Positions 25,574 to 54,453 of a stretch of DNA of 64,000 nt are shown one piece after another. The translations under genes were made by a program, and so were the position numbers. This stretch comes from Bilabrum cf. latius (taxonomy: Eukaryota). Below the pieces are notes generated by a model. It saw only the letters and a program-made list of their open reading frames with translations. It searched no databases and was not told the DNA's origin. The stretch covers positions 372,001-436,000 of the forward strand of contig OZ237752.1 in NCBI GenBank assembly GCA_965178125.1. The letters are read 5' to 3'. How positions within the stretch are numbered: position 1 is the stretch's first letter; the number at the start of each line of letters is the position of its first letter.

Positions 25574-27253
25574 TTACGATGTGTCTCCCCGCATCGCTTG
25601 CTGCCCCTCATCGCTCGGATCCTCGGGATCCCCCGTGCTATCCCGCATCGACGCTGCGCATGGCTCTAGCTCTTGCTCTGCACCTGGCCCGGCCTAGCCA
25701 TCCCGACCAGCACCACCTGCAGGCCCAGCACCAGGAGTGCCAGCCGCAACAGACAGGGGTGTGGTCCCGGCCGCCACCGATGACCCGCCTGCCCCCCCAA
25801 CTCCCGGCCTACCTTCTGCCAAAGCAGCTGTGGATCCAACCCGAGGACCCCCCGCTTGTTCCACAGCTGCCGCCGCCCCGCCCATCGCTGCCCCCGATGC
25901 ACCCGCGGTTGCTGGCCCCGGGCCTGCCCCCGGTGCCATAGGCCACGCCTTCCTGTCAGTGCCACCAGCGGCTCGCAGCCTCAGGTGCTCCACGTACCTG
26001 GCGTGCACCTGGGCGTTGCGCTTCGCGGAGATCGCCGTGCCTCCCTCGATGGCCAAACAGGCTGCGTGTCTGCCCATGGCTGCCATGCTTGGATCTCCCA
26101 TCATGAAGGGGTGTGTGGCGATCTTCGCCATGGAAGGCCGCTAGCTTGCATCTTCCCGCACCATGAAAGTGCAAAAATCCTGCGCCGCGGGGGGCAGCCT
26201 CATGTACCCTGGGAGCTCTCTGATCTGCCTGTGGAGCTCCTTCTCTCCCAGCGACTGGCCCTTGCGCGGCATGTTACCGCACAGGAGCCCCACCGCGCAC
26301 ATGCCCAGCGAGTACAGGTCCGCTCGCTCGTCGTACACCTCCCCCCTCACGACCTCGGGGGCGATGTAGTTGTCCTTCCCCGCCCAGCCCCGGATGCCAT
26401 CCGCACCCATAGGCAGCGGGCCACCATCGGGCGCACTCGCCACACCCCTGGGAGGTTGCAACCACCTGTCCACGGCCTGCCCCGGGTCGATGATGACGCC
26501 CTCGCCGTCGTCTGCCAGCACCGAGTTCTCGAGAGACACGTCACGGTGCAGCACGCCCCTCGTGTGGTGGTGGTGCAGCCCCTTCGCCAGGCCATAGAAA
26601 GCCTTGCGAGCGGCTGCCGGATCCATCCCAGCCGCAGCAATATCCAGCAGGTCCCCTGAAGCGTAGAAAGGGGTCACGATGTAATAATAGCGTTCGTCAC
26701 TCGCAGTTGCGACGACGTGGCATACGTTTGGGTGCGGCCTGCGATCATGCAGCAAGACATCAAGTGGGAACGCGGGGGTAGAAGCTACTCGCGGAGTGTG
26801 TCAACCAACGTTATGGCGATATCTGCACTTGCCTTTAAGTGCAGCCGTGCAAGGAGGGTGTGTACGAATAGGCGGCAAAAGGCAAACGCGACCTCACCTC
26901 GGGTATTGCAAGTAATCTTGAGTTTTGACTTCATCTTGCGGATTTTCATCTGTCGGTTTCCCCTTCCTTGTCATGCTTGTTCGAATACATCTCCACATGC
27001 ATCGCTTTATGGCAAACTATTTCCCGCCCACCACTGGATGAAACTCGCGGCGCCCGGAACCCGGATCGACCATTTCTTCTTGCTCTGACGCGTGCCATAT
27101 GTCTCCCATCATTGTATCAAATAATTTCTTCTCTAGCCTAACGTATCCTAGACCTTCTATGTGTAGGAATCGGCCCGAGGTGGTGCATCCTCGCATTCGC
27201 TGGGTCGATACATGGTTGTACAAGCACTTCAAAGAGTCAAATCCTCCTGCCAT
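25574..27253 (-). CDS. Ser/Thr protein kinase (HRDxSLEN type) with an Ala/Gly-rich tail
   Basis: Exons 27253-26898 and 26738-25574, phase-compatible. Motifs FAIK, ENPQDE, HPN, HRDVSLEN, DPG, GKDNYIAPE, RPSMAKIATHPF. Needs readthrough of TAG at 27017, 26141 and 25694. Ends in TAA. Confidence 0.85.
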
Positions 27254-27469
27254 GCGATTTATAGTATTGTAAACACAACTGCTTGCACAGGATACGGGTT
27301 TATGCGCGAGTGTCTAGGAGGGAGTCGTTTCTTTGCCACTACTGAATATTTCATTTATTAGTTTGTACGGTGCTTTTTACATGACAAAGCTAGCGTCGGC
27401 ATCATTCCGGAGATATAGGGTCAATAAGGCTTATTTATAATGTCTTACCTCATGAAAGTTGCCTATAGA

Positions 27470-28350
27470 ATGATGCCACGACGAATAGCTCAGAGGGTAA
27501 GCTCGTATATGTTGCTATAATTGTGAAAATGAAGTGTGCGGTGTCATCCCGGTTCCACATCGTCCCATTCTTTCCTTGCGCAGCTTCGCAATGCGATTGA
27601 GTATCAAGGGGGTGTTATGGATTCGTACTTATTTAGTGCTAGCCCGAAGCAGGACGAATGGGGCGTGGAAGGGCGCTTCAAGTACGGCTACCGCCAGCCT
27701 GCGCCCGGGTGAGCCGATCAGCTTCGGATAGCCTCAGATTCGCGCGCCCTCGTGCTTTGTAATTAGGTATTTCGCTTCTCTGCTAGTTAAATGTCTCCTT
27801 TTGCTGGTCTCGCAGGGATGAACCTGACCATCGCCGAACTAGCGTGCCAGAGCGGCTGGACAGCACCATTTATGACACAAAGTATTACTCACGAGACTAC
27901 CGGGCAAAGTCCAAGTTGGTTCACATCTCTGCAGATGAGGCTTTGAAATTGAAGGCAACCAAGGAGACTTCGGACCGCCTGGCCTTCTTGGAGGGAGACA
28001 AGGATTTGCCGAGCCACCCGCTTGTGGTGGAGCGCGAGAAGCAGGGCCGCATCGAGGAGCACTCGAGCAAGGGCATGAAGATTGCTGACGTGGAGCGGTA
28101 CGACAAGACCGGCCTCCGAGTCTTCAAGACGGCCACTTGGGACGCCTACAAGAAGGCGCTTGCGGACGACATGCCCGACCACCTCCCGGCATCCTGGTTC
28201 ATGCGGCACAGCGGGGACGGGCCCGTGCAAGGCGACGACCGAGCCAACAAGGACCTGGACACGCTCATCATGGAGGGCAGGGCGCTCCCCACGAACCCCT
28301 TCAACACGCAAAGGAGGAGGACCAAGTGGCACTACACGGGGCGCGTGTGA
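27470..28350 (+). CDS. Probable mitochondrial complex I accessory subunit, NDUFA7/B14.5a-like
   Basis: Exons 27470-27496, 27584-27708, 27816-28350 (TGA). The YRQPAPG...VP...IYDTKYYSRDYR motif resembles B14.5a homologues as I recall them; no search was run. Confidence 0.5.
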
Positions 28351-28583
28351 GCGGGCAGGCCTCGGGCTAGCGAGGGCTGTGGTGGTGGGGGGACGATGGG
28401 CCTTTGTATGGCGACATGAATCATTTCAGTTTTGAGGAAAATGTGTCGTGTGTTGCCAGACAATCTCGCGATTCCCGTCAAAAACTAAACCGGAGCAGTA
28501 ATCGAAACCACACGTTACCAATAATCAGCAAGGCGAATGATACAGTTCGCCGCGTGTAGGTGCTTATATTGCGTTTAAGAATC

Positions 28584-29712
28584 ATGGCGGCTGTAGGTGA
28601 ATCCAAGTACAAGATAGTCTTGCTTGGGGAGGGTGAGTGGTACGTTTGGTCCGCAGCTGCGGCTTGTCTCACTGCAAGGCTTGTCATGGCAGAAGAGGTC
28701 CAAGAGCAAGAGCAGATGCCGGAAGCCTCTGCGTTAGCTCTCGTACCGTTCGATAAAACAGTTGCTCTGGACCAGCGTTATGCGGACCATGGAGCGTCGC
28801 TTTGCTGCCGATCCAAGCAGTTGCACAAGGAAGGTTCCGACGAAATGCGCTCCGCTTTTGTTCGCAGGGGCTGTTGGGAAAACTTCTATTTTGCTGAAGT
28901 ATTGCCATGATATGTTTGATGAACACCGGCAGCCTTCAATGGATGCCTCATACATGGAAAAGCGAATCGTTGTCAACGGAGCTCCTGTCTCGTTGAGTAT
29001 TTGGGACACGGCAGGTAAGTTGATTGCATCCAGTTGTAAATGCGCTGATGGCAGAGTTTTCTCCCATGCCTTAACTGTTAAATTCTGAGCTTCCTTGCTG
29101 GTCCTCGCAGGCTAGGAGCGTTTCCACGCGCTGGCACCGCTGTATTACAGAGACGCAGACGGGGCAGTGCTAGTATACGATATCACTGACTACAGATCTT
29201 TCGAAAAAGCTCAGCACTGGGTGCGAGAATTGCAGCGTATGGCACCAGAGGGTATTAAAATCACGCTTGCGGGCAACAAATGCGACAGGGAGAAATCCCG
29301 AGCGGTGAGCAGGGAGGAGGCGAGCAAGTTCGCGCGAGGGTGCGGAGCAGAGGTGAGCTACACCAGCGCGAAAACTGGCGAAGGCATCGAAGCCTGTTTC
29401 TCTGGATTGGCACAGCGGCTTATGGCGGCAGCGCCTGGCAGGGGGGCGGGCGCGGCGGGCGGCGATGTGATGGGCAGCGGCGGAGGCGGTAGGCGCGGGC
29501 GGCGAGGACGGGGCAGCAGGCGAAGCCTAGGCGGCGGGCTCGGTGGCGCGTCTCCAGGGGGTGCAGGGGGCGGTGCTGGCGCTGGGGCTGGGGCGGGCGC
29601 GGGTGGCAGTGGTCGCCGTGGACGGGGAGCAAGGGGGCCCGGACGGATTGTGGTTGTTGACGACGATGGGCCAGTGGCGCATGCTCCCGGCGGGTCTGGA
29701 TGCTGCGGCTGA
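28584..29712 (+). CDS. RAB21: Rab GTPase, Rab21-like
   Basis: Exons 28584-28632, 28868-29014, 29111-29712. KIVLLGEGAVGKTS, WDTAG[TAG]ERFHALAPLYYRDA, GNKCD, TSAKTG and a C-terminal GCCG prenylation motif. Confidence 0.9.
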
Positions 29713-29880
29713 GAGCAGATTGACTCGAATGAGGCATTAGATGAAAGCAACGTTTGATTATGGCTTGTGACTTTGTGTTCAATGGTCAGTCGATGGTCAG
29801 CGAATCGCTTGCAGATGAAGAGTTCGACCGGTTGCAAAAATGGAGAACTGCAACCAAATGAGGCCCCATGCATCAGTTGT

Positions 29881-32510: not shown

Positions 32511-32737
32511 GATCGAGAATAATAGCGCTGGAAATGGCCGGCTGCAAGGCCTTCAACGACACCGAGAACGAAGAATGACAGCTAGTGTACTGCTTAGAGC
32601 AGTGTATCTCAGACAGTCTTAGTTTAGCCCTGCTTTCCGCGCAATTTGCTCAACTGTAGTAGCTCCGGATCCCACCTTTGCATTTGCGTGAGTTGTTGTA
32701 ATGATTGCACAATACAGAGACTCAACCAACCGTGGAT

Positions 32738-35700
32738 ATGCCAATGATAAGTCTGCTTATCGGCTTTGCTAGCCTCTCTGCAGCTATGAACTCAGCCAGC
32801 CATGTTCCGGAGTCCGCGGACCGGCAGCAAGCCAGACTGAAGCAGTACAACGATCTTGTGTTCAAACTGGGATACTCCCCCACCCCAGCGCCAAACAACC
32901 CCGACCTTGACTGTCGGCTTCGACGAGTCGCTTTTGATTACAGCCTCGAGATCATGCCAAGCCGCGCACCTTTGTCGACTGTTTGGGAAGCACTAGTGAG
33001 AGCAGCAGCCATCCAGCATGCGACGCGCCTGGCTTGCCTCCTGCAGAATCACATCCAGCAAAGCTCAATTATAGTACTGAAACCTTTTCATTTGCACACC
33101 TCGGATCTCGCAGGAGCTAACTACACGTTGCAACCAGACGAGGCCTACACAGTTCGGTCCCATTCGCGAAGGCAAGACGGCTCTCACCGCATCGAGTGCG
33201 AGCCAGCAGCAGGGTAACGCAGTGCCAACGTATTACGTGGACCCAGTGCACGGATCCGACACGGGAAGTGGCTCGGAATCTTCCCCCTTCAAGACGATCG
33301 CCCGCGCGGTGTCGGCCACTCGATCAGTACCGACCGAGCATCGCACTATTGTCCTTCGGAGCGGGCTTCATGTCTTGCAGTAGACTATCCAGCTGACCGA
33401 TATCGATTCCGGTCTTACCATGGAGGCCTATCAGGGCGAGGAGCCCGTGGTCAGCGGTGCCATGCCCCTGAACGACCTCACGTGGGAGCCTTTCAACGTC
33501 ACCAAAAACGGCAGCTCGAGCATGGATATCATCATGGACTCCAACGACATATCCGGACAGATCTCCAAGCCGAAGGAGAACACCAGCAACATCCACTATC
33601 TGGGCCAGTTCGACAGCTACGAGCCGTGCGCCGGCTTGTGCGAGGGCTGGAAGGAATGCACCGGCTTCACGTGGCAGGGCGAGTCGGGCGACGAGTGGGC
33701 CCACGGATGCTACGGCCGCACGGACGGGAAGTGGTCACCTGTGCACCAAAACAAGATCGTGTCGGGGTACAAGACCACCCCGCCGAACGTTTGGAGGGCC
33801 AAGATCTCACCCTACCAGAGCGCCTTCCTGTCGCCGCAGACCTACGGAGTGCTGCACGGAGAGCCAGCACGCGGTTCCAGCGCAGACGGCAGCGGTCTTG
33901 AATGGAGCAGGACCATCCGAGCGAGATGGCCCAACGTGCGCAATCCCGAAACCGACTTCTTCCCGGCCGGCTGGGCCTCTGGGAAGATCACGTGGGGCCC
34001 AATCCGTAGCGACTACACCTCGTACGACCCCGTGTTTGTGCAGTCGCCGAACGACACGACGGCAGGCATGTTCAAAAACTTCCAGGGCGCGTTCGGGGGA
34101 CACTGCCACATCTTCAAGCCGAACTTTTCGTACTGGTGCGGCGAGCACACTCAGGGAGGGGGCGGCGTCCCGTTCGTGCAGCCGTGGGGCGTCACGTGGG
34201 ACCCCAAGGACGACGTGTTCCCCGAGGCGCTCAACAAGGCGGATCTGCAGGACAGGCTGGGCTTCCACACGTGGAGGGAGGCCCACTGGGCCACCTGGTC
34301 TTTCATCATCGACGACGCGGACTTCGAGAAAGGCCGCATGAACTGGACCGTGGGCGGCTTCCAAGGGGCCAGGGGTGCCAAGAAAGGTGCCGAATACTGG
34401 ATCGACAACGCCCTGGTGCTGCTGGACAACCCCAACGAGTTCTTCATTGATTTTCCCTCGGGCGTCCCCTCCGATGGTGCGTACCTGTACTACTTCCCCA
34501 ACAACACCGAGTCCAAGCCACCGTCAGCCGACGAGGTGTTTGCACCAACCGTGCTCGACTCTCTCTTCACCATCACCGGCAGCTCCCAAGCCTCGGCCGC
34601 TCGTGACGTGGCATTCCGCGGAATCAAATTCATTGGTGCGGCTGCCACTTTTATGGAAGACCACATCGTGCCGTCTGGCGGGGACTGGAGCCTGGAGCTC
34701 ATCGGGGCGCTGCTTGCCCAGAACACGGAGGGGCTGACCGTCGATGGGTGCCTGTTCGAGCGCTGCGACGGGAACGCCGTATTCCTGAACGGGTACAACA
34801 AGGACTCGTTCATCACCAACAACGAGTTCGCATGGATCGGCAGCACTGCCATCGCACTTAACGGACAGGCCCGGGACGATCTCATGGACCTGACAGAAGG
34901 CAACCAGCCCACGAACGTGTACATCGCCCAGAATCTGATTCGGGAGATTGGGGTGGGACCGCCCAAGCAGGAGTCGTGCGTGTTTGACAGCAAGACCTCC
35001 AACACGTGAGTGACTCGGCGGGGTCTGTTGAGCAGCAATGCTGCGTATGCTCCGCTCGCGCCCGATGCGCCCTCCACTCCTGTCGCAACTAGCTTGCTGT
35101 CTGCTCATTGAATGATCGCTCACATCCTCGTAGGACCTTTGTGGAGAACCTCTGCTTCAACGGGCCCCGCGCTGGGTACAATGCCAACGACAAGGGCGGA
35201 ACGTTTGGCGCCAAGATCAAGCGCAACTTCCTGGGCAACCTGTGCAGGGAGTCCTCCGATCATGCGGGTGAGAGATTGGCGCGTGTCTGTTGCCATTCCT
35301 CAAGATACAAGCACCGTGCTTCGACCGGATAGCTGACTACTGGCAGCATGGTGCGGCGTATCATGCCCTGTTCGTTTCATTCCCAGCCCATTCCTCTCGC
35401 AGTGTTCAACTCGTGGTCCCGCCAAGTGTACCTGTTCAAGGACCAGGACGGGGTGGGCTCCACGGTGATTCCCACGCCCACCGAGCTGTCTGAAAACTTT
35501 TACATGGGCAACTACGGGGCCTCCATGAGCGTGGACAACGACGACGGAAGCGCCTGGTACGACATCCACGATTCGGTTTCGTACGGTGGAGGGTGAGTGC
35601 ATGAGAGGGTCGGGACGTTCACACCGTTGCAGTCAGTGGAATTGCCTTATCATCCTATTGTAGCATCTGTAGGCCCCAAGTCGCTGCGGTGTCAGCAGGC

Positions 35701-36258
35701 GGTGATGCATGTGTGATCCGTTCGTGATGCATTTCTGATGCGAGGCCGTGCACTGGGTGCGGCCTGCCTGACGCAAGGCCGCTTTTGTCAGCTTCCTCGA
35801 GTTCGGCATGCCACGATCCCTTCCCATTGTCCCATTCCTCGCGCTGCAGCCACAAGAGCAATTTCGGCGGCCACAACAAGGCGACGCACGACGAGCTGCA
35901 GATCTACGCGCGAGTGTACCAGCCCGCCTGCTTCCGGATCTCGTCGACGAGCGGGCCCGCACACCCCGAGGGCTACTTCAACAACACGTGCATCATCGAT
36001 CCTACTGCCAGCGGGACTGCAGTTTACAACCTGAGGACGAGTATTGATGGGTCGAACGCAACGAACAACGACTTTCGTACGTTTGGGAACACAATCTACG
36101 CGCCCGGTGGCGAGGGCGCACCGGTCAGCCTCGATGGCAAGGCTTCCACGTTCGGGGACTGGCTCAAGATGGGCCTGGATGCAGGCAGCACAATATCGGG
36201 GAAGACGCCATCTAATGACGAGATCGAGGCGATGGCGCGAGCGAAGCTGGGCTTGTGA
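32738..36258 (+). CDS. Secreted right-handed beta-helix protein (pectin-lyase fold, GH141-like) with an inserted PAN/apple-like Cys module
   Basis: Signal peptide MPMISLLIGFASLSAA; YYVDPVHGSD...PFKTIARA...EAYQGEEPVVSG; C..LC....EC..FTW; beta-helix repeats. Introns at ~32996-33113, 35006-35133, ~35268-35402 and ~35593-35849. One TAG at 33381. Ends in TGA. Confidence 0.7.
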
Positions 36259-36396
36259 CGGATGCTAGAACGGCATTTGCTTCTTGACCGACGGATGATG
36301 CAAGACTACCTATGCATCCGTGCTGGATCTTCTTGGTTTGCATTTGCTTCTCACTCTCAGATGGCCCAGAACGATAAAAATTACTATTATTTTAAC

Positions 36397-38790: not shown

Positions 38791-38929
38791 ACAAAAGTGC
38801 TGGTCCGGATGTAGGAAATGGGCCTAAATTATTCGATTCCAACAAACGTAGGGACTCCAAATCCGATCGGTGGATGGCTCTTTGCGAAGCTTCTCCCTAC
38901 GTGGCGGCCGTGGCTTAGAGCCCTTGATC

Positions 38930-39500
38930 TTAGGACTGAAAGCACAGCAGGTCCGTGTACATCTGGATCTTCTGCCCGGAAAACTCCAGCATGGTCTTGT
39001 CCAGCGCCTTCACGAAGTCCTCGAACAGCACTGGTCCCCTGATCAGCCCGCCCCCTAGTCGCCGCTCCCCGGTCGCTGGCCTGCCCTCCCCGCCCCATTC
39101 GCCCCCCGGCTGAGCCACGAACTGCTGGGCAGGCCTTCAGCCTGCCACATCGCCCCTTCCCAGATCCCATCTCCGACGGCCAGTGTGTCGAAGCAGACGT
39201 ACCCCCGGTCGTACAGCCAGTGCAGCACCTCGACCGGGTCATCGCCTGCGTCCCTCAGCATCGACGGCGTGAACTCCACGCGGATCACCCCGACCCCGTG
39301 TTCCTCGATCAGCCGCCGAGCCCCCAGCAGCACCGCAAAGTCCGCTCCCTGCACGTCGATCTCAAAAAATCCACGTGCTCGTCGATCTGGTCTTCCAGCC
39401 GCACCACATCCACAGGCACTGCGGTGACCCCCCGCCGGCCCTCGGCCTTCAGGCCGTACAGCGCGCTAATCTCGCAGACAGTCACACATGGTTGCAGTTG
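38930..39500 (-). pseudogene. FkbM-family methyltransferase remnant
   Basis: VRLEDQIDEHVDFL/(K)IDVQGAD...G...IRVEF...TDLLCF. Frameshifts near 39362 and ~39055-39120. The 5' part is replaced by the insertion starting at 39533. Ends in TAA. Confidence 0.65.
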
Positions 39501-39532
39501 GTTCCCTCCGAGAGCCCATCCTCAAAGTTACC

Positions 39533-41770: not shown

Positions 41771-44700
41771 ATGCTTACCAGCCAAGGGAGAGCACCAGGT
41801 ATGCAGCGTGCTCAAGCAACATCCAAAAGCTTTCTGGGCAAGCCGCCGAGCCTACCACGACCAATTAGACATGCTACACGACAGGCAGCGCGATTGGTGC
41901 TGTACATGCTTGTTCTTGCGCGGTGCGAGGCGAGTTCGCCTTTGAACTACCAGCGAACGGGGGGAGATGACACACCTGGGTGAGAGTATATAGCATCGTC
42001 CGTTAAGGCTTGTGACAGTTTATGTCCAACAACAACACGATTAACACTATACTGCAGCATCTCACCATATCATTGATGATCGTACGGGGTACTCAAGCAG
42101 TGCTTTCGTACCTCAGAGCCCAATTGTTTGTTTGTCACCCAGCTCCTTCCTGCAGTCGGTAGCTAGCCGACCAGCAGACGGAGTACTAGCTGCTAGGAAA
42201 GCGTGAGCTGTCGGAAGCGTCTGGTATACTTCAGGATACCAGGAAGATATCAGACACCCAGGGCGGCTTCACGGGGCAGCTGGATAATCTTGACAGTTTT
42301 GGCTACTCCGTAGCATCTCTTGGGGACCTGGACGGAGACGGGGTGGTAGACATGGCCGTGGGTGCCTATAGCTACAGAGGGGCTATGTGGGTGCTGTTCC
42401 TTCGATCCAACGGCATGGTGAAGTCGCATCAGAAGATATCAGACACACAGGGCGGCTTCACGGGGCAGCTGGATGGTAGTGACTTCTTCGGCAGTTCTGT
42501 GGCATCGCTGGGGGACCTGGACGGGGACGGGGTGGTGGACATGGCCGTGGGGGCTTATGGAGATGATGACGGGGGCTTTGATACAGGGGCTGTATGGGTG
42601 CTGTTCCTTCGATCCAACGGCACGGTGAAGTCGCACCAGAAGATATCAGACACCCAGGGCGGCTTCACGGGGCAGCTGAGTAATGGTGACAACTTTGGCA
42701 TTTCTGTGGCATCGCTGGGGGACCTGGACGGGGACGGGGTGGTGGATATGGCCGTGGGAGCGAAGGGAGATGATGATGGCGGATCTAATGCAGGGGCTGT
42801 ATAGGTGCTGTTCCTTCGATCCAACGGCACGGTGAAGTCGCATCAGAAGATATCAGACACACAGGGCGGCTTCACGGGGCAGCTGGATAATGGTGACTAC
42901 TTCAGCAGTTCTGTGGCATCGCTGGGGGACCTGGACGGGGACGGGGTGGTGGACATGGCCGTGGGGGCGATGTTCGATGATGATGGGGGCTCCAATTCAG
43001 GGGCTGTATGGGTGCTGTTCCTTCGATCCAACGGCACGGTGAAGTCGCATCAGAAGATATCAGACACCCAGGGCGGCTTCACGGGGCAGCTGGATAATGG
43101 TGACTACTTCAGCAGTTCTGCGGCATCGCTGGGGGACCTGGACGGAGACGGGGTGGTGGACATGGCCATTGGAGCGAGTGGTGATGATGATGGGGGCGTG
43201 AATCCAGGGGCTGTATGGGTGCTGTTCCTTCGATCCGACGGCACGGTGAAGTCGCATCAGAAGATATCAGACACCCAGGGCGGCTTCACGGGATAGCTGG
43301 ATAATAGTGACAACTTTGGCAGTTCTGTGGCATCGCTGGGAGACCTGGACGGAGACGGGGTGGTGGACATGGCCGTGGGAGCGAGGTCAGATGATGATGG
43401 GGGCTCCAATTCAGGGGCTGTATGGGTTCTATTCCCGCATCATATTCCGTTGACACCGTCGCCATAGTGGTACGTCGGGCTATCCGAGGACGAGTACGTG
43501 GTGGATCCTGCCAGCGTGCCTGCGGGGTGGTCCCTTGCGACGGAGGCACACGTGGTTGATGGGACCCCGTACGACGACGCAGAGGCAGTGTTGCCTGAGT
43601 CTGGCGGCAACCGTTCCGTGCACCTGGAGCAGTCGGGGTGTGCCTCCGCCCGCGCGTTGCTCCCCATGGGGTACCTGCAGGGCGACGTGGTGGCCACCCT
43701 GCGCTTCAACTGGATTATTACTGCCTCGGAGCCGGCTGCGGAGCTGCACTTCATGCTGCTGGCTGGCAGTACTTTGCTGGCCGGGGAGTAGGCCACCTCT
43801 CGGGGGGTGGGGTAGTCGATCTCCCTGCGTGCGGCTGGGCTGGATGGCACTCGGCGCATTGACCTGCTGGTGCGGCTGTGGCCCATCAGCGCCAACTACT
43901 ACGGGTGTCCAGGGGAGGGCCCTCACATCGTTCGGCAGCCTCCTTATCGATCCACCTCGTGCGGGGTGCTGCCGCGGTCCAACTGCACCCTGGCGATCGG
44001 CGGCAGCACCTCGGCTACTGTGCGGATCGCGCCCCAGAGCATCAAGGGCGACGACGGGGGCGGAGAGGAGCTGACAGGCGTTGACCTGCTGTCCATGGCG
44101 GGCGCAGATCTTGTGTTCGGGTTCAACGGCACGGGGTGCGGGGAGGCTGGCGAGGCATGCGCAGCAGGTGCGCGGGCCCTTGGGGCCAACTGCACGGACA
44201 TCATGGGTCTCCCTGATGCTGGCGTGGGCTGCGGCCTCCGTGGGGTGGATCGGCTGTGGGTTGGGTCAGAGCAGGAGTCTGCCCTGATTCGAAGGCGGGG
44301 CTCGGGGCCACATCGCGTACTCGCGTATCCGGATGTGGCTGGAGGAATGCCGGCGGCCGCGACGGAGCTACGACATCAGAAGATATCAGACACCCAGGGC
44401 GGCTTCACGGGGCAGCTGGATGGTAGTGACTTCTTCGGCAGTTCCGCGGCATCGCTGGGGGACCTGGACGGAGACGGGGTGGTGGACATGGCCGTGGGGG
44501 CAATGTATGATGGTGATGGAGGCAATGGTAGAGGGGCAATGTGGGTGCTGTTCCTCCGATCCGATGGCACGGTGAAGTCGCATCAGAAGATATCAGACAC
44601 CCAGGGCGGCTTCACGGGGTAGCTGGACAATAGTGACTACTTCGGCAGTTCCGCGGCATCGCTGGGGGACCTGGACGGAGACGGGGTGGTGGACATGGCC

Positions 44701-47700
44701 GTGGGGGCCTATCTGGATGGTGATGGGGGCTCTGGTAGAGGGGCAATGTGGGTGCTGTTCCTTCGATCCGACGGCACGGTGAAGTCGCATCAGAAGATAT
44801 CAGACACTCAGGGCGGCTTCACGGGGCAGCTGGATAATTTTGACAACTTCGGCAGTTCCGCGGCATCGCTGGGGGACCTGGACGGAGACGGGGTGGTAGA
44901 CATGGCCGTGGGGGCCCATCTAGATGATGATGGGGGCTCTGGTAGAGGGGCTGTATGGGTGCTGTTCCTTCGATCCAACGGCACGGTGAAGTCGCATCAG
45001 AAGATATCAGACACCCAGGGCGGCTTCACGGGGCAGCTGGACAATAGTGACAGATTCAGCAGCTCTGTAGCATCGCTGGGGGACCTGGACGGAGACGGGG
45101 TGGTGGACATGGCCGTGGGGGCCTATGGAGACGGTGATGGAGGCAATGGTAGAGGGGCAATGTGGGTGCTGTTCCTTCGATCCGACGGCACGGTGAAGTC
45201 GCATCAGAAGATATCAGACACCCAGGGCGGCTTCACGGGGCAGCTGGATAATGGTGACATCTTCGGCTATTCTGTGGCATCGCTGGGGGACCTGGACGGA
45301 GACGGGGTGGTGGACATGGCCGTGGGGGCCATGTTTGATGGTGATGGGGGCTCTGGTAGAGGGGCAATGTGGGTGCTGTTCCTCCGATCCGACGGCACGG
45401 TGAAGTCGCATCAGAAGATATCGGACGTCCAGGGCGGCTTCACAGGGTATCTGGATGATGATGACTTCTTCGGCATTTCTGTGGCATCGCTGGGGGACCT
45501 GGACGGAGACGGGGTGGTGGACATGGCCATTGGAGCGAGTGGTGATGATGATGGAGGCTCTGGTAGAGGTGCGGTGTGGGTTCTTCTTATGAACAGTAGC
45601 CATGCGGCTCAAACCCAACACCCCTAGATCTCACAGTCGTTGCCACCCATCCCAGCACATACCGTAGAAGGCTTGGCAGCCAGACTGCAGGGAGGTGCGT
45701 GCTCTTTGGAGTCCTCGATTGGAACTTTCAGTGCCAGCGATGCTCCAGTAATCGTGCTGGAAGCATCGTGTGACTCGATGGCATCTGGCGGGGCTGGCAT
45801 GCAACACGCAAGCCAGGTGTACCACTCGTGGCTCTCTCGAGGAGGTTATCGCATAAGGATGGGTGTCGGGTACGGATCTAGCACGCCGTCCCTATCCGAG
45901 CCTGGCACCTCCCCAGATGCGGTCCTACTGCAGGGGAGCGCAGTGTGCTCCCTTGGGGACTCGAGGCAGGGCGATGGCAGTCTGGCGCTGCTGGTGGGCG
46001 ATGCATTCTCCGGGCGCGTTGGAGTGGCCACGGTTGCGGCATCTAGCCCTGGGAGCGGATCCAAGCCGCCGCTGCAACTGCTCCGCAATGACACGGTGCA
46101 CGAGGGTCCGTCATCCACAGGGGCAGCGGTTGCCTGCATGGGTCGAGCGCTCCTGGGCGGCACGTGGCTGCACGACCACGTGGCGGCTGCGGGCGCTCCT
46201 CTAGAGGACGAGGTGAGGCTGCTGTCGCTGAGCAGAGAGGGATAGGCGTGGTCGGGGCGGGTCCTTACCACTTTGGAATCTCCGACTGGGAGCACGGGCG
46301 ACAGCTTCGGGGCGGCGGTGGAGTTCCTGGGGCCTCTGCGGCTGGAGGGGCAGGAGCCCGATGTGTCCGCTGGGGAGGTAGGGGGCGAGGTGTCGCTGCT
46401 GGTGGGAGCGCCGGATTGGGCCGACGGGTCATCCGGCGGGGGCCGCTTCGGTGCCGTGGTGATGATGCATCTGGCCGTGATAGGGGACACAGGAGCGCCG
46501 GACCGGCTCTCATTCACAGTGGCAGGGCACCATCTTGTGTCTCCAGCGCTGATGCCGCTGCGACTGGACGGCCGCTGGCCCCTTCTGTTCGAGGACTCGG
46601 CCTTCGGAGCCGCTGTGGAGCTGCTCGGCTTTCGAGATGACGGAACAGTGGTCTTCTACGCCGGGGCACCAGGGTACAATGACTCAGCGGGGGCAGTTGC
46701 GAGGGTGCAAGTGGACCTGCACTCCCGGCTGGGTCCGCTTGGGAATGCATCCGCCATCGTGGAGCGGTTGCACGCAGCCGATTCACTGCACGGGCAAGAG
46801 CCTGGGTCCCCTCCGCCCACCGGCGTGGGGCCCTCATGCCGCCTGGGTACGGCGCTAGAGACCACGGTCGGAATGCAGAGCGACCTGGCCACGCAGCAGG
46901 TGCACCTGCTGGCCGCTGCCCCTGGCTGTAGCGGGCGCAGCCTAGTGCGCATGGAGGCGTCCACGGCCAATCTGAGCTCCACACCACCCTGGATGCGGAT
47001 GGTGGACCAGCAACGCGCGCGTGCGCTGGACTGCGGAGGCACTGCCGGCATGTGTGCTGCCCTCAATGCCACCCTGGTTGCGAGCTCAGGTGGTGGCGGC
47101 TGGCCGCCTCTCGACCCCACCAGCGCCGCAGCTCTCGGGATCGCTCCTGACACAGACGCTGCGATTGCCGGGGCCAATCTCACGTGGGGCGGAGACGCCA
47201 TCATGCGACACTTGGCGCAGGCAGGTTGCTTGCTTACGGAGGGACTGCTCGGGGGCCAGGCGGCGGGGGCTGGCCAAGGGGGGCTACCTCACGAGGACAT
47301 CGCCTGGGTGGGTCCAGCAGCCAGATGCAGCGCGGTGCATGCAGGCCGTGCCAACGATGCGATCGCCGTGGTGCTTCGGCGACCTGTGTATTTGCCTCGA
47401 CCATCGGAGCTGGGCAGGGCACAAGAAGCAGCCCACGTCTGGGTGGGTGGTGTGCCCTGCGCCACCGCCAGCCTGCACGCCGGCAGAGGCACCACCATCG
47501 TGCAGTGCAATCCAGCGCGGGCGCTTCTGCCTGGACTGGCCGCGGTCGTGATTCGGTATTCAGATGGGCGGTGGTCAACGGATGACGGGCAGGAGGGCGC
47601 CGCTCTGGTCCAGAGAGAGGAAATGAGCTCAGGATAGGATCCGTGCGAGAGGAGGATCCAGCTGGCGGCGAGGCGGGACGTGGAAGCTGCAATAGGTACC

Positions 47701-50700
47701 GCCAATGCCAGTGCCAGTGCCAGTGCCAGCGCCTTGCCGTGCCTGGCTGTGGGCGTGCTGGGTCCGCTGAGGCTGCTGCGGTCGGGTGGCTGGGGGCCGC
47801 AGGTGGGGGCGGGGGATGTGCTAGCTGCTGCTCCCGTTGGCGATGGCTGGGATGCAGGCGGGGGCTGGGATGCGGCACTGGGAGGGGCTGGTACTCTGCT
47901 GACGGAACACTCCGACGACTTGTATCCGTGGACAAGCCTGGCGAATGCATCCGTTACTAGCAGTCGGCAGATCGTACGTGCTCACGTGGGGCCGTTTGGG
48001 TGCGATGCCGCCGGGCGCTCTGGGTTGGCAGCTGTAGGTAGTGCCGCACCCACGACCCTTCGGTGCAACTTGGGCGCCGACGGGTCGGGGGGTCCGTTCG
48101 CGATGACGGCGTCGCTCCCGGGCTTGGACTGGCTGGAGACAGCTCAAATCGCGGTGGAGGACGAGACGGCCGCTGCCCCTTCAGAAGCGGGCGGCATGCG
48201 GGCTGCCTGGGTCTCGGTGCCAGATGCTACGGTGCAGTCGGTGATTCCAGCGGTCGTGCGCATCACCACGATGCTGGAGACGCACCTGGATCCTTAGTAT
48301 AGACACGATGTCATAGTTCGAGGCACGGGGCTTGCAACGAGTGGAGGGGAGCTGGCTGTGGGGGCAGTGCTGCTCGGTGGCCAGAGATGCGACCCTCTAG
48401 AGGTTGTGTCTACCACGGAGCTGCGGTGCGGGGTACGAGCACATCTGGTGACGTCTGATGCAGTCGCTGTGGTATCGGTTAGCAGCTCACTGGTGAACGC
48501 CGCGAATGAGACCGATGGGGAGACCCGAGGCGCTGCCCTTGCATTGGAATGGAAGCGAGCCATAAACACAACGCTGCAGCCCGTCGGTGGTGCAGGCTGG
48601 TCTTCCTCCACAACCCCAGCCCCCACTGCTCCCAAGACTACCGTGGTGAGCCAGCTGCTGGTCGTGGAAGACCCCACCGTGCTGGGGGCCAGTCCATCAC
48701 TGGTGAGTCCCAGCGGTGGGGAGAGCGTGCAGCTGCTGGGGGTGCAGCTGGGGGCGGGCGAGGGGCGCTACATCGAGTCCGTGGATGTGGACGGCTCGCC
48801 ATGCACCAACGTGACGGTCGAGTCCGACTTCGTGATCCGCTGCACGTTGTCGCCCAGCGAGGGCGGGGCGGGCGTGGTGCGGGTGCGAACCGTGTGGGGC
48901 CGCGACTATGTGAGCGCGGCTGGTGTGCTGCGATTTACCGCTCCAGAGATGGATCAAGTGGTCACGTCGCCACAAAACGTCTACAACTTGCTGAACTCAT
49001 CGTACGAGGTGATCGTCACGGGCCGCCACTTTGGGATCCCGCGGGTAGGGGGCAGCGGCAGGTCAGCCCGCGTGCTGGTGTCGGGTCGGGAGTGTCCGAG
49101 CGTGAGGGTGATCAACGACTCGGCCATTCGATGCAGCGGCCTGTCTCCGCCGTGGACACCTGGCGACTACAGTGTGAGGGTGATCATAGGGAGTCGAGAG
49201 GCCGTGGACCTGACTGCCTTCCCCTTCCAGCCGCCTGTGCAAGTTACCTCGGTGACGCCGGCGGTCGTTCCCGGGGAGGGCGGCTGGATTGATGTACACG
49301 GTGAGGGGCTGGGCTAGTCCCCGCAGGACATTGTATCAGTCACCGTGGGACCATTTGCATGTTCCAATATCGAGATGCGCGAGCTTGGGGTGCGCATTGG
49401 CTGCCTGCTGGCCCCTGGTGTGGGCGTTGGCCACGCGGTGCGGGTGGTTTCAGCCCAGAACGGCGAGAACCTCGAGACAGGGGCACCCACGGTGGGGTAT
49501 GCCGCGCCGCTGATCCAGTCGGTTGCCGTTGTGGGTGGCAGTATCAATGCAAGCTACCCGCGGGCGGTCGCCTACACTGAGGAGCAAGACATGCGACTGG
49601 AGCTGTCAGTGAAGCACGCCGGCTGGAGCCTGACGCAGTGGGAAGCATTGAGCTCGGACGGCCTCGGGGTAGTGCTGCTGGAGGGCCCGGAGTGGAACAC
49701 CAGCTGCAAAGACGTGGCCATTCAGGGCACATCTCCAGCCCTGGGGGATCCATCGGTGGACATGTTGGTCCGCGTGCGATGCTCGGTGCAGGACTGGCGC
49801 ACCGGTGGGCTGGCCATGGAGCTGGCTGGCACAAGCCAACAGCTGGTGGACGTGCGGCTGCGGGTAGGCGGGGAAGCTGCCACGGGGGGCCTTGATGTGG
49901 CAGCCGCTTCGGAGCTGCTGACGACTTCCGTGGCACCAGGCGGCAGCTTATTGCTGGTGGGACGGCCGCGCCTGCAGGTGCTGAGTCCCAGGACGTTCCC
50001 GTCGAATGGCACCGCCGATGCTGTGACCAGCGGGTCGGCGTTGAGGGTGCAGGCAGCGCGCGGAGATGGAGAGTCTCCGTCGGTGCAGCTGGCCGCCCTG
50101 CTGCAGCTGGCGGGGTCTGACGACTGGGAGTAGCGGGGGCCAAACAGCCCGCGAGTGTCTGTGGTGCTGTCCGCAACGGACGCAGTTGCCGTGGCTCCGA
50201 CCCTGGTGGGAGCGGGTGCAGCTGCAGGGCTGATGCAGATCCGGGGGTCAGGTCTGGGGACGGGTCCATGGGCCGTCCGTGGAGTGACGGTCGGGGGCCA
50301 GACGTCCAGGGTGGTTGTGTGGGTGTCGGACAAGGAGCTGCTGGCGTACTGCGAGCCGGGAGTGGGCGTGGATGTTGCGGTGGTGGTCGACACACTGAGC
50401 GGCAACTCATCCACAGCGGCGGGGGCCGGGTCGGGTGGTACCGGGTTGCCATCGGCATCTCAGCACGTGGTGAGCTACGCGGGACCCAGTGTGGAGGATG
50501 TGCTGCCTGCGTACAGCATCATGGGGCCGGATGTCTCGGCCGACTTCACCATCCATGGGCTCCACTTCGGCTTCCGACAGACCGACGTGGAGGCGGTGTT
50601 TGTGGGTGGCCAGCCATGCGGGAGCATTCGGTGGAGGTCCAGCACGCGCATCGATTGTGTGGACGTGTAGGGTTCCAGCTGGCCTGCGGGCAGTCTGGTG

Positions 50701-53700
50701 GAGGTGCAGGTGGCTAGTCAGACGAGTCCTCGCAACCGCCTCTTCTCGCCCCTGGGAGTGCCCATCGTGACCTCGGTGACGCCCGACAGCGCCTTGGCGG
50801 GCGAGCGGCTGGTGATCGCCGGGACGAGCCTGGGCCGAAGCAGCGCGGATGTATCCCGTGTGAGCCTGGGTCCACACGAGTGCCTCAACGTAGTCGTACG
50901 CGGAGAGACGTCGTTGGAGTGCGTGGTGCCATCGCTGTCGGGCGGTAGCCTCGTGGGTCTCCCCGTGGTGGTGTATCAGAGCGGCGGGCTCTCCAGCGAC
51001 GAGACGAGTGCTCCAAGATTCACGTACGGTGTCACGGGAAGCCCCTGGCCGGACATCCCGCAGCATGTGCAGGCATGGCGAGAGCGCAACGACCGCATCA
51101 CGGTCCGCTGGGCATTCCCCGACCCTGCCGCGGTCTCTGTGAACGACCTTGGCCTGGAGCCGCTGGACGGCTTCTAGATCGACATGAGGTCGATTTCAAA
51201 GGTGGCAGTAGACGGCGATGGGACCAACACGAGTGTCTCCACGGCCTCAACCGAGTCCACTGCATTCGATGTGGACCTGGAAGAGCTGGCCGCGCAGTGG
51301 AGCTCCTCCGGCGGGGTTGCTGTCATGCAGGCCGTAGTCACGGCAATCGATGCGCGACCATTGAGTGTGCGGGTGCGGGCCCGCAGCGCCGCCGGGCCCA
51401 GTCCGTACTCGGCGTGGACGCCCGGCATCCCTTCATCATGCTCGCCGTCGGAGTTCCTCACGACTCATCTGCCGATGGCCGAGTGGGTGTGCCGTCCCTG
51501 CGACCTTCAGGCCTCGCTGTGCGACGGGGGCTCCACGTTCACGGTGGCGGCACGGGCGGGCTACCAGCGACTGCCGTGGGTGCTTGGTCGTGCGGCATTC
51601 TCGCGGTGCCTTCGTCCTGAGTCGTGCCTGTCTCTGGCGAGATTGGATGCGGCTGAGGCTGGTGGGTCTCCCGAGGAGGGGGCGCCAGATGCCCTCGTGC
51701 CCTCCTCCGGATCGACCGTGCAGCGACGACTCCAGCCAAGCCAGTATGCACCGTCGTCGGATTTGTCGCTGCAGTCACTGTATGAAGGCATTGCTCCGCC
51801 ACAGGCAATGTCGCTGCAGCGGGCTCGTGCAATACGCAAGTCAGCATCGAACACATCGGCGGTGCAGGGAGCCAGCATCAGTGAGCTGACCGACGCAGGA
51901 GCCCCACTGTGGGTGGGCGAGCGCTGCGAGGAGGGATACACGGGGCTGCTGTGCGCGCGGTGCCGGCCGGGGTACACGCCATGGGGGCAGTACGAGTGCA
52001 GGCAGTGCCGGGGTGGACTTGCCGTGTTTACGATTGCTGTGCTGGTGACGACAGCAATGGTGCTTGTGTCCATCGGCCTTGTGCTCAATGCACTGAGGCA
52101 AGGAGCGCAGGCAGCAGAGAAACTGGCGGCACAGCTAGGGGTAGGGGTAGGGGGTGCTGGACGGATCAAACCCGGATCCGATGGCGATCGCCCAACGAGC
52201 ATGACTCGTGTGTCACCTGAGCTCGGAGCTAGCGATGGTCCACGCATGATCATGGACAACCCCATGATGCATGGCAGGTCTGGCAGAGTGCACACAGCTG
52301 TACCGGCAGCATCTGAAAATGCATCCTCCGCAGACGACGAAGCCTCGGTCCCATCGGATGCACAAGATGGCACTATGAAGGAGCGCCGGGATCTGACCGT
52401 ATCGGCCATCAAGATCCTCTTCTCACACATTCAGGTGGTGGCAATCGCGGCATCCTTCAAGCTCAAGTGGCCCGACACGGCGATCCGTCTCTTCAACAGC
52501 ATGTCGGCTGTCTCCAGCGTCAGCTCGGACGTGCTCAGCCTCGACTGCATGCTGCAGCAGGCTACAGACGACGCAGAGGCCCTGGCGCAGGCAGCCAATG
52601 TGTCGGTGGACGACGCGGGAGCAGCGGAATGGGGAGCGATCGCGGCGCGGGCGGCGGCATCCGGGGACAACAACGCCACTGCTACGCCGCTGGACTGGCC
52701 GCACGCCCAGGAGACGGATGAGCAGCTGCTGGCCGACTCGCTCGGCGTTCATGAGGCCGTGACGCTGGGTGTGGGGGGCGCGTCCTCGGGTCTGGCGTCG
52801 CTGATGCCTCACGGGTCTGCGTACTTCCTGCGGACGACGATCGTGCTGCTCAGTCCATTGGTGATTGCCATGGGCCTGACCCTCTTCTGGCTGCTGGTGG
52901 ATGCGATCGATGGCTGTCTGTACGAATCAGAGCACCCGGACGAGGGCAGTGGCGAGCAGAAGGAAGGAGGGGAAGCGCAGGCGGATGTGCGAGAAGGGCA
53001 GGGCCAGGCTAGAGGGGAGCAGAAGAAGCCAGAGAAGATCGTAGGGGATGTAGCGCATGCGGAAGAGCAACGCGCTGCCGGCTCGCAGCAGCCGACTCAC
53101 GGCCAGAGCACTGCCAAGGCCGCTGCCTCCGTACCCGTCACTGACGAGCCAAAACAAGGCCATCGCCGGCGGTAGAGCCTGTTCCTGTCTATGGTCAGCA
53201 AGCCTACTCTCAGCGAAGCGCCTGGAGTCGAAGGTGCGGGTACACGTGCTGATGGCAGTGCGCTACCGGAGCAGACGGAGCTCGAGACGTTCTGTCTTGC
53301 AGGCAGCTCTCGCACCGGCAGCATCCTGCAGGCCGTGGGTGTGCCGCTGTCGGTCATGCGGCTCGGCCTAGGGATGCGCATCCTCTCCGGTCTGATCGTC
53401 GTTGGGTTCTTGGTGCACCTGACGCTAACAGAGGCCTCCTTCGGGCTGTTGACCTGCACCGACATCGAGCCTGACATGGACTTGGCAGCCGAGGACCAGC
53501 TGGATGCAGCCGAGGATAGGTCTGGCCGCCAGCTGAGTCCCAGCGGGTCGGACGAGTGTCCGGCGGGCACGGAGGGTAGGCGGCTCGTGCTGGACATGGA
53601 TGTGTGCTGCTACAACCCCGCGGCCATGGGGCTCATGTTCGGGGTAGGCATTCCTGCCATCCTGCTGCTGGCCGTGGGCATCCCGCTGGCGGCCGCTGTG

Positions 53701-54453
53701 AGGCTGTGGCAGGTCCGCGAGTAGCTCGCGACTCCGGGCGTGCTGGCCACTCTGGGCTTCCTGATGGCGGGGTTCCGCCACAATGCTTACTACTGGGAGG
53801 TGGTAATCATGCTGAGGAAGCTGGCCGTGGTGGCCATCACGGTGCTGGCGGAGCCGTGGGGGGTGCGCGTGCAGACGTACTCGGCGCTGGCCGTCATTTT
53901 CGCGGCCAGCGTGGTGCATTCCCTCAGTCGGCCGTACGTGGCACCGGAGCTCAATACACTCGAGCTGGTGGCACTGGTGGGCGCCTTCCTGACCTTCGAG
54001 GCCGGCCTCTTCCTGCACGACCCCAACTCGGGGGCAGCGACCATCACGGTGGCAACGGCAGTCGTGTTTGTGGCGAACCTCGCCGTGATGATGTGGGGCA
54101 TATACGTCATTCGAGGCAACCTGCTTAGGCGAGTGTAGGAGGTAGCCACAAGGGTATTTGGTATGTGTGGATGCAGGCAGGACCGGCAAGAGTGGGTGCA
54201 GAAGAACTCCGAGAGCATGGAGAAGCGGCGGCGAGCGAAGCTGGCCAGGTCGGGGTCTGCAGGCGCGGGTGCAGGCAGTAGAGGCACGAGCGGTCCTACT
54301 TGTGTATACGTTAATGTTGGCATGGGAGGTAGTCCAAAGCAGAGCGGCCTTACTGGTCAGGAGGGTGGTGTTGAAGGTGGCTCGGGTGGTGCTGCATGGG
54401 CGCGGACGCCGAGGAGCATTCCCGCGACACAGGGCACAGCGGAGTAGACTTGA
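41771..54453 (+). CDS. Giant (~4170 aa) cell-surface protein: FG-GAP/integrin-alpha-like propeller repeats, IPT/TIG domains, FN3-like and Cys-rich regions, and a multi-pass TM C-terminus
   Basis: Exon 1 (41771-41979) has a hydrophobic signal-like stretch; intron 41980-42155. Exon 2 (42156-54453) is one 12.3-kb frame with 20 TAG and no TAA or TGA until the end. TM motifs KILFSHIQV, YYWEVVIMLRKL, RPY...LNTLE. Confidence 0.85.
42244..45590 (+). repeat. Two blocks of six 207-nt (69-aa) coding FG-GAP repeats (42244-43430 and ~44377-45590)
   Basis: KISDTQGGFTGQLD..D.FG.SVASLGDLDGDGVVDMAVGA..DDDGG...GAVWVLFLRS.GTVKSHQ recurs at 207-nt spacing. Confidence 0.95.

What the first reader, a model, noticed from the sequence alone, without database searches (positions are those of the whole stretch)
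25574..54453. UAG and UAA are decoupled: UAA appears to remain a stop
Seen: no in-frame TAA in any gene model, although CAA is used freely (20 TAG versus 0 TAA in the 12.3-kb exon). Terminators are TGA in 11 ORFs and TAA in two (kinase 25574, FkbM remnant 38930). Known: UAA and UAG are nearly always reassigned together (ciliate table 6). Separate meanings are rare, for example Iotanema spirale and some phyllopharyngean ciliates. Inference: an eRF1 that recognises UAA and UGA but not UAG, plus a CUA-only tRNA. Support for TAA as a stop is thin in this window.
Basis: partly seen in the sequence, partly recalled or inferred. Interest (0 to 1): 0.85.

Follow-up and report, generated by a model that had tools for sequence, protein, structure and literature searches.

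The report
UAG codes glutamine; UAA unused
This GC-rich eukaryote, and a related one, read the stop codon UAG as glutamine while never using UAA inside genes, a rare "UAG-only" genetic code so far reported from only a few protists.

Summary
The 12.4-kb ORF (42016-54453) has 20 in-frame TAG, 0 TAA and 0 internal TGA.

TAG = Gln is firmly shown:
- It encodes the catalytic Gln of WDTAGQE in an RNA-spliced Rab21 gene. A related metagenome contig (L001) has CAA there.
- It fills a Gln column of the FG-GAP repeats (9 CAG, 2 TAG, 1 TAT).

TAA is absent from coding sequence:
- In 10,502 curated coding codons there are 34 TAG and 0 TAA, against 307 CAG and 91 CAA (Fisher p = 2e-4).
- With L001 orthologs added the count is 44 TAG to 0 TAA (p = 2e-5).

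So the two codons are decoupled in use.

That TAA still terminates is only inferred. Nine genes end in TGA. The two TAA-ended ORFs are a kinase paralog of doubtful integrity and a pseudogene remnant.

tRNA and eRF1 could not be examined, because no genome is held and no tRNA lies in the window or in L001.

The code matches the known Iotanema/Hartmannula type, so this is probably a new lineage of a known variant. It is unusual in relying on UGA rather than UAA. The lineage is unresolved.

The parts
42016..54453 (+). Single 4145-codon ORF (12 FG-GAP repeats, TIG domains, TRP-like membrane C-terminus) with 20 in-frame TAG, no TAA, ending in TGA
   Evidence: TAG at 43294 and 44620 sits in the Gln column after GGFTG (9 CAG, 2 TAG, 1 TAT). 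TAG at 42802 sits in a Trp column (11 TGG, 1 TAG).
28584..29712 (+). Rab21 gene, three exons (28584-28631, 28867-29014, 29111-29712), ending CCG-TGA
   Evidence: Introns are seen in spliced contigs of runs X5, X6 and X8 but not in DNA run X2. Translation. PDB Rab21 match E = 3e-29.
29113..29115 (+). TAG at the catalytic Gln of the WDTAGQE switch II motif
   Evidence: It is kept as TAG in spliced RNA contigs with 0 differences. The relative L001 has CAA at this codon.
27440..28350 (+). NDUFA7/B14.5a-like gene, three exons, ending in TGA; the ortholog in L001 also ends in TGA
   Evidence: (weak family lead)
32738..36258 (+). 'Gene B' (signal peptide, PAN-like and beta-helix regions), five exons, one TAG (33381), ending in TGA
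   Evidence: Four RNA-supported introns. Translation. The L001 ortholog has 9 TAG, 0 TAA and ends in TGA.
36259..38790 (+). LRR-like ORF, TGA to TGA, 3 TAG (36427, 37816, 38146), no TAA
   Evidence: Contig X5 record 13 covers 36404-38822 without differences.
25574..26800 (-). Kinase K1 exon ending in TAA (25574-25576); 2 TAG (26143, 25696); next in-frame TGA is 45 codons further on
   Evidence: GC falls from 0.67 to 0.40 just after the TAA, as after the TGA of neighbouring genes. Paralogs lie at 14048-14926 and 1516-2466.
38930..39597 (-). FkbM methyltransferase remnant (last third of the domain only) whose last exon ends in TAA (38930-38932), with a second TAA five codons on
   Evidence: Half-depth variants at 39126 and 39153 in the DNA run point to a second copy elsewhere.
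55250..61734 (-). MIB/HERC2-SPRY-kinase gene, at least four exons; 3 TAG (61266, 60223, 56812), no TAA, ending in TGA
   Evidence: The exon joins are inferred from the split GPDW|xWGDQD motif and have no RNA support.
61902..63623 (+). Type-B carboxylesterase, two exons (intron from 62352), 2 TAG, ending in TGA
10295..13777 (-). Reverse-transcriptase ORF of a multicopy retroelement, 4 TAG, no TAA, ending in TGA
   Evidence: The copy of its 3' part at 39.2-41.2 kb has about 20-fold depth in the DNA run.

Best explanation
The organism is a GC-rich eukaryote of unresolved lineage. [quoted passage not shown] UGA is the main terminator. UAA is not translated and most likely remains a rarely used terminator. 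This is the 'UAG-only to Gln' code, formally NCBI table 15.

Shown:
- UAG = Gln.
- UGA terminates.
- UAA is absent from coding frames.

Inferred:
- A tRNA-Gln with anticodon CUA, one base away from CUG, reads UAG. It cannot pair with UAA because of the C:A clash at the wobble position.
- eRF1 has lost UAG recognition but keeps UAA and UGA.
For: TAG = Gln:
- It encodes the catalytic Gln of Rab21 WDTAGQE, in contigs spliced across RNA-only introns with TAG unchanged.
- The orthologous codon in L001 is CAA.
- The FG-GAP column has 9 CAG, 2 TAG, 1 TAT.
- 3 of 4 TAGs in ankyrin exons sit in Gln columns.
- 4 of 10 L001 TAGs align to Gln in the window.

TGA = stop:
- Rab21 ends CCG-TGA at its prenylation motif.
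- Gene B and the NDUFA7-like gene end in TGA exactly where their L001 orthologs end in TGA.

TAA not sense:
- 0 TAA against 34 TAG in 10,502 codons, with CAA 91 and CAG 307 (p = 2.2e-4).
- 0 against 26 in seven TGA-to-TGA intervals, which do not presuppose TAA as a stop (p = 0.0034).
- 0 against 10 in 1,481 aligned codons of L001, whose GC is 54%.
- Combined p = 1.8e-5; the upper 95% bound on the TAA share of TAR codons is 6.6%.
- The rarest sense codon, TTA, still occurs 11 times.
- In a coding-potential continuation test at threshold 0.15, 16 TAG, 0 TAA and 1 TGA were flanked by coding signal on both sides. The same intronic TGA was flagged at the looser 0.1 listing.

TAA as a stop:
- GC drops from 0.67 to 0.40 directly after the kinase TAA, as after real TGA stops.
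- The FkbM remnant ends in two tandem in-frame TAAs.
Against: - Positive evidence that TAA terminates rests on two ORFs of doubtful integrity. The kinase has truncated paralogs and no clean RNA cover. The FkbM piece lacks two thirds of its domain.
- All three ortholog-verified gene ends are TGA.
- If TAA followed the TTA/TTG ratio (11 to 106, 9%) rather than CAA/CAG, the chance of zero among 34 is about 0.035 (from counts).
- The coding score over the 60 codons after the kinase TAA is 0.12, about the 90th percentile of random frames, so it is not clearly non-coding.
- One TAG replaces a conserved Trp. Six of ten L001 TAGs align to residues other than Gln.
- tRNA and eRF1 were not seen.
- The sample is one 64-kb window plus 6.5 kb.
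Confidence: 0.7

Rival explanations
1. Both UAG and UAA are reassigned to Gln (table 6 type, as in ulvophyte algae, hexamitids and many ciliates). UAA is simply very rare because of GC-rich third positions, so none falls in this small sample. All termination is by UGA.
For: - GC3 is 0.72 in the big ORF, and A-ending codons are disfavoured (TTA 1 to TTG 36, AAA 4 to AAG 47).
- 9 of 11 gene ends are TGA, and all 3 ortholog-verified ends are TGA.
- In ulvophytes TAG is used more often than TAA (passage of PMC2984419).
- A weak Atlas lead (0.89) ties the NDUFA7-like protein to a chlorophyte cluster.
Against: - CAA is 23% of CAR in the same genes, which predicts about 10 TAA for 34 TAG; none is seen (p = 2e-4).
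- None is seen in the lower-GC relative either (0 to 10).
- TAA is rarer than the rarest sense codon.
- The kinase shows a UTR-like drop in GC right after its TAA.
Confidence: 0.17
2. UAA is effectively unassigned. It is neither decoded nor used as a working terminator, and UGA is the only functional stop. The two TAA-ended ORFs are dead copies.
For: - Both TAA-ended ORFs are suspect.
- There are no TAA ends among the genes with RNA or ortholog support.
Against: - eRF1 variants that lose UAG usually keep UAA. UAA is the main stop in Iotanema and in the phyllopharyngean cases (abstracts of PMC5304391 and PMC11687900).
- There is a compositional break at the kinase TAA.
- With about 11 genes, two TAA ends are not fewer than expected for a minor stop codon.
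Confidence: 0.08
3. UAG is ambiguous: Gln inside genes but also a terminator near 3' ends, as in Condylostoma or Blastocrithidia-type codes.
For: The last TAG of the big ORF lies two codons before its TGA, so either could be the real end.
Against: - 0 of 11 gene ends needs TAG.
- Rab21, gene B and the NDUFA7-like gene run to TGA in both species.
- There are 20 TAGs spread along one ORF.
Confidence: 0.04
4. Artefact: pseudogenes, retained introns, leaky read-through or U-to-C RNA editing of TAG rather than a changed code.
For: The window does hold pseudogene copies (K2, K3, the FkbM remnant).
Against: - 34 TAG but 0 TGA and 0 TAA in 10.5 k codons cannot be decay.
- TAG is kept unedited in spliced RNA contigs.
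- Polymorphisms between runs are mostly synonymous in the called frames (17 of 33 changed codons are synonymous).
- Twenty successive read-throughs in one ORF would give no product.
Confidence: 0.01

Closest known systems
Iotanema spirale (Fornicata) nuclear code: UAG = Gln, UAA and UGA stops (Panek et al. 2017, PMC5304391; abstract and passages read)
   Same: - UAG alone is reassigned to Gln, with no in-frame UAA or UGA.
- UAG makes up about 8% of Gln codons there. Here it is 34 of 432 (7.9%) in the curated set.
   Different: - There UAA is the predominant terminator and its role is shown on hundreds of transcripts. Here UGA dominates and UAA termination is unproven.
- The genome here is GC-rich, about 60%.
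- The Iotanema eRF1 change (T32G in GTS) could not be looked for here.
Hartmannula sinica and Trochilia petrani (phyllopharyngean ciliates): UAG = Gln, UAA preferred stop (McGowan et al. 2024, PMC11687900; abstract read)
   Same: UAG-only reassignment to Gln, with UAA kept as a stop.
   Different: [quoted passage not shown]
- This window has ordinary spliceosomal introns and retroelements.
- The best named Rab21 matches are ochrophyte and haptophyte proteins at 55-59% identity. Nothing points to a ciliate, although the lineage is unresolved.
TAR to Gln code (NCBI table 6): ulvophyte green algae, hexamitid diplomonads, oxymonads, many ciliates (PMC2984419 and PMC8271138, passages read)
   Same: TAG read as Gln; TGA as the working terminator.
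   Different: Those lineages also carry TAA at Gln positions. Here there are 0 TAA among 44 in-frame TAR codons.
Other UAG-only reassignments: rhizarian exLh and a phyllopharyngean clade (UAG = Leu), Scotinosphaera (TAG = Ser, TAA stop) (PMC5304391, PMC11687900, PMC8271138)
   Same: UAG is decoupled from UAA.
   Different: The amino acid differs. Here the recurrent aligned residue is Gln, including an invariant catalytic Gln.

Membership tests
UAG-only to Gln nuclear code (Iotanema type; NCBI table 15) | In-frame UAG at conserved Gln positions of real, expressed genes | tested here: met
   Rab21 catalytic Gln in spliced RNA contigs; CAA in the L001 ortholog; FG-GAP Gln column with 9 CAG and 2 TAG.
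UAG-only to Gln nuclear code (Iotanema type; NCBI table 15) | No in-frame UAA or UGA in coding sequence | tested here: met
   0 TAA and 0 TGA in 10,502 curated codons. 0 TAA in 1,481 aligned L001 codons; the 3 TGA there lie in an intron inside one HSP.
UAG-only to Gln nuclear code (Iotanema type; NCBI table 15) | UAA serves as a true terminator at orthology-defined or poly(A)-anchored gene ends | tested here: inconclusive
   Only two TAA-ended ORFs, both of doubtful integrity. The three ortholog-checked ends are TGA.
UAG-only to Gln nuclear code (Iotanema type; NCBI table 15) | UAG is never the terminator | tested here: met
   0 of 11 gene ends is TAG. The sample is small, and one TAG lies two codons before a TGA.
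UAG-only to Gln nuclear code (Iotanema type; NCBI table 15) | tRNA-Gln(CUA) present and no tRNA with anticodon UUA | not testable with these tools
   No tRNA in the window or in L001; no genome held.
UAG-only to Gln nuclear code (Iotanema type; NCBI table 15) | eRF1 N-domain altered at UAG-reading positions (GTS, NIKS, YxCxxxF) | not testable with these tools
   eRF1 is not in the window or in L001; no genome held.
TAR to Gln code (NCBI table 6) | In-frame UAA as well as UAG at Gln positions | tested here: not met
   0 TAA among 44 in-frame TAR codons, against 101 CAA among 438 CAR codons (p = 1.8e-5). The sample is limited to 71 kb.
UAG to Leu or Ser codes (exLh, phyllopharyngean clade, Scotinosphaera) | UAG aligned to Leu or Ser columns | tested here: not met
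   No TAG aligned to Leu. 2 of 10 L001 TAGs align to Ser at variable sites, against 4 to Gln, plus the invariant Rab21 Gln.
Ambiguous stop/sense codes (Condylostoma, Blastocrithidia type) | The same codon is used both inside genes and as terminator | tested here: inconclusive
   No gene needs TAG as its end. There are no transcript 3' ends to test it (one search gave contigs only).

The most novel reading that the evidence does not exclude
This is an independent origin of the UAG-only Gln code, shared by at least two species. It lies in a GC-rich eukaryote that is neither a ciliate nor a metamonad. Unlike every described case, UGA rather than UAA does nearly all the terminating, and UAA is close to unused in either role. 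That would make it a natural near-'single stop codon' genome. It could be a living intermediate of stepwise UAR reassignment, driven by GC pressure rather than AT pressure.
Probability: 0.45. Interest if true: 0.75.

Novelty: new member of a known kind. Interest (0 to 1): 0.6.

Why it matters
Separate fates of UAG and UAA in nuclear codes were unknown until 2017 and are still documented in only a handful of protists. All of those keep UAA as the main stop.

A further lineage with the opposite base composition and UGA as the main stop would give three things:
- an independent replicate for asking how eRF1 loses UAG alone;
- a test of whether GC pressure can drive the change;
- a practical warning: standard-code gene callers will break every TAG-containing gene of this organism and its relatives. 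The protein database already holds a Rab21 fragment that starts just after the TAG (P0004).

Tried and rejected
- **Sequencing runs.** No listed holder is on record as RNA. Three runs guessed as RNA proved to hold spliced contigs. All runs were contigs, so transcript 3' ends and poly(A) sites could not be read. RNA cover over the kinase 3' end (25167-25833) was near nil, which is no evidence either way. Nine joints and 53 variant rows were not shown.
- **Protein Atlas.** Two other ORFs gave only weak leads: a chlorophyte B14.5a cluster at 0.89 and SPRY clusters at 0.88.
- **Metagenome scans.** The scan with the reverse transcriptase found nothing. The second scan gave L001.
- **Homolog search of the kinase C-terminus read through TAA.** With lengths 'shorter' it found nothing, so conservation past the TAA was not tested.
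- **Other negative results.**
  - The NDUFA7-like exon has no PDB relative and only two relatives among 5.8 billion proteins.
  - A codon-usage continuation test discriminates weakly at 40-60 codons.
  - There are no TGTAA-type poly(A) signals after the stops, except near the kinase and RT elements.
- **Rejected as evidence.** The TAA ending kinase copy K2 (14045-14047) comes from a 1-base insertion four bases from a retroelement breakpoint. The TAA at 54989 follows an earlier TGA. The TAA at 32699 is upstream of the gene B start codon.
- **Literature.** Searches found no report of a GC-rich eukaryote with a UAG-only Gln code. Supplements of the cited papers were not opened.
Full report
**What the window is.** It is a eukaryotic nuclear sequence of about 60% GC. 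No genome is held for it. It has no tRNA or Rfam match.

Pfam places these genes in it:
- protein kinases and MIB/HERC2 repeats;
- a type-B carboxylesterase;
- ankyrin repeats;
- a reverse transcriptase;
- an FkbM fragment;
- a 4145-codon FG-GAP/TIG/TRP-like protein.

Contigs of three runs (X5, X6, X8) skip eight GT..AG stretches on the + strand and one on the - strand. The DNA run X2 does not skip them, so those runs hold spliced RNA. These joints let me build four gene models:
- an NDUFA7-like gene;
- a Rab21 gene;
- a five-exon secreted beta-helix gene ('gene B');
- the first exons of an ankyrin gene.
.

**Checking the observation.** ORF 42016-54453 is bounded by TGA on both sides. It holds 20 TAG, 0 TAA and 0 TGA, with 128 CAG and 22 CAA. 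Window-wide triplet frequencies predict about 34 TAA, 71 TAG and 142 TGA in 10,502 random triplets. A curated coding set of that size holds 0, 34 and 0. The kinase ORF ends in TAA at 25574 and the FkbM piece in TAA at 38930. I verified nine TGA ends rather than eleven.

**What TAG means.**
- The strongest case is Rab21. TAG 29113-29115 lies two bases after an RNA-proven exon junction and encodes the Gln of WDTAGQE. Solved Rab21 structures align their catalytic Gln to it (E = 3e-29).
- The spliced contigs of three runs carry the TAG with no differences, so it is not edited. The same holds for the gene B TAG at 33381, in a spliced contig of X6.
- In the 12 FG-GAP repeats the codon after GGFTG is CAG nine times, TAG twice and TAT once.
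- Three of four TAGs in ten ankyrin exons sit in Gln columns.
- One TAG replaces a conserved Trp (11 TGG, 1 TAG). I read this as a missense change one step from TGG.

**A relative.** A scan of metagenome contigs with the NDUFA7-like exon returned one locus, L001 (6540 bases, 54% GC). It carries orthologs of gene B, NDUFA7 and Rab21 at 73-81% nucleotide identity, in a different gene order.
- Its Rab21 has CAA where the window has TAG, and TAG where the window has a normal Gln codon.
- Its gene B has 9 in-frame TAG.
- Of the 10 L001 TAGs, 4 align to Gln, 2 to Ser and 1 each to Glu, His, Arg and Val.
- L001 has no in-frame TAA in 1,481 aligned codons. Its gene B and NDUFA7 orthologs both end in TGA, at the same residue as in the window.

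So the trait belongs to a lineage, not to one assembly.

**Is TAA decoupled?**
- If TAA were a synonym of TAG, the same third-position G/A balance that sets CAA/CAG should set TAA/TAG.
- The curated set has CAG 307 and CAA 91 but TAG 34 and TAA 0 (Fisher one-sided p = 2.2e-4).
- To avoid circularity I repeated the count on seven intervals that run from TGA to TGA, which do not presuppose TAA as a stop: 7,897 codons, TAG 26, TAA 0, CAG 244, CAA 63 (p = 0.0034).
- Adding L001 gives 44 to 0 against 337 to 101 (p = 1.8e-5). The upper 95% bound on the TAA share is 6.6%.
- Under the harshest analogue, TTA/TTG at 9%, zero among 34 still has a chance of only about 0.035.
- In a coding-potential test at threshold 0.15, 16 TAG, 0 TAA and 1 TGA had coding signal on both sides. 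A TGA flagged at the looser 0.1 listing is at the start of an intron.

- The kinase K1 shows a drop in GC from 0.67 to 0.40 right after its TAA, like the 3' UTRs after TGA stops. The next gene starts about 300 bases on.
- But K1 has two truncated paralogs. RNA contigs over it carry paralog variants and break off at the paralogy boundary.
- The TAA of paralog K2 is created by a one-base insertion next to a retroelement breakpoint and counts for nothing.
- The FkbM piece keeps only the last third of its domain. Its two tandem TAAs may preserve the parent gene's stop, but that is inference.
- A search for relatives extending past the kinase TAA found nothing.

**Mechanism (inferred).**
- A tRNA-Gln(CUA), one anticodon change from CUG, reads UAG and cannot read UAA.
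- eRF1 must have lost UAG recognition.
- This is the mechanism proposed for Iotanema, with a T32G change in the eRF1 GTS motif (passages of PMC5304391).
- Neither molecule could be examined here.

**Comparison and novelty.**
- The code matches Iotanema spirale (UAG = Gln at about 8% of Gln codons, UAA the main stop; PMC5304391). It also matches Hartmannula and Trochilia (abstract of PMC11687900). Here TAG is 34 of 432 Gln codons, 7.9%.
- It differs in base composition and in relying on UGA.
- It does not fit table 6, for which ulvophytes are the GC-richer example (PMC2984419, PMC8271138).
- The lineage is unresolved:
  - The best named Rab21 hits are pelagophyte, haptophyte and other ochrophyte proteins at 55-59%.
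  - The NDUFA7-like protein has only two relatives in the database.
  - The Atlas leads are weak.
- Four literature searches found no report of such an organism.

**Verdict.**
- TAG = Gln is settled.
- Decoupling from TAA is well supported statistically on a small sample.
- TAA as a terminator is likely but unproven.
- It is a new member of a known, rare kind.

Noticed in passing
window 3300-9200 and 15900-23300, minus strand: Large tandem arrays of about 650-bp units, 77-88% alike. Each unit seems to hold one 33-codon ankyrin-repeat exon plus its intron, so exon and intron were amplified together. The first intron of the gene (25077 to 24850) is RNA-supported.
   Followed up: partly
window 1516-3488, 14041-15944, 26201-26739; 9232-10198 and 24451-25429: Segmental duplication of a kinase-plus-ankyrin block (93-98% identity). 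Copy K2 is cut off by a 3.8-kb retroelement (about 10199-14040) that replaced 771 bp present in K1.
   Followed up: partly
window 39174-41174: The DNA run X2 has depth of about 900-1200 here against about 48 elsewhere. This is a roughly 20-copy repeat that includes the 3' part of the retroelement (compare 10196-10588).
   Followed up: no
window 29710-29883: Rab21 (+) and an ankyrin ORF (-) converge with only about 170 bases between their TGA stops, so their 3' UTRs must overlap or be very short.
   Followed up: no
L001 811-4121 against window 32738-36258: The relative's gene B carries 9 TAG where the window's ortholog has 1. In the relative the gene lies inverted next to NDUFA7, without the kinase, Rab-flanking ankyrin or LRR genes between them. 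So both TAG density and gene order change quickly in this lineage.
   Followed up: partly
window 42802-42804: TAG stands at a Trp position that is TGG in the other 11 FG-GAP repeats. If TAG is Gln, this is a Trp-to-Gln change in a conserved core position.
   Followed up: partly
window 34095-34894: RNA contigs of X5 and X6 differ from the window at 25-31 of 686-800 bases here, while DNA run X2 matches exactly. Most of the changes listed for gene B are synonymous (17 of 26 changed codons). This points to a diverged allele, strain or paralog of gene B in the RNA samples.
   Followed up: partly
window 54445-54453: The last TAG of the big ORF is two codons before its TGA, so the true C-terminus is ambiguous if TAG keeps any terminator activity.
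   Followed up: no
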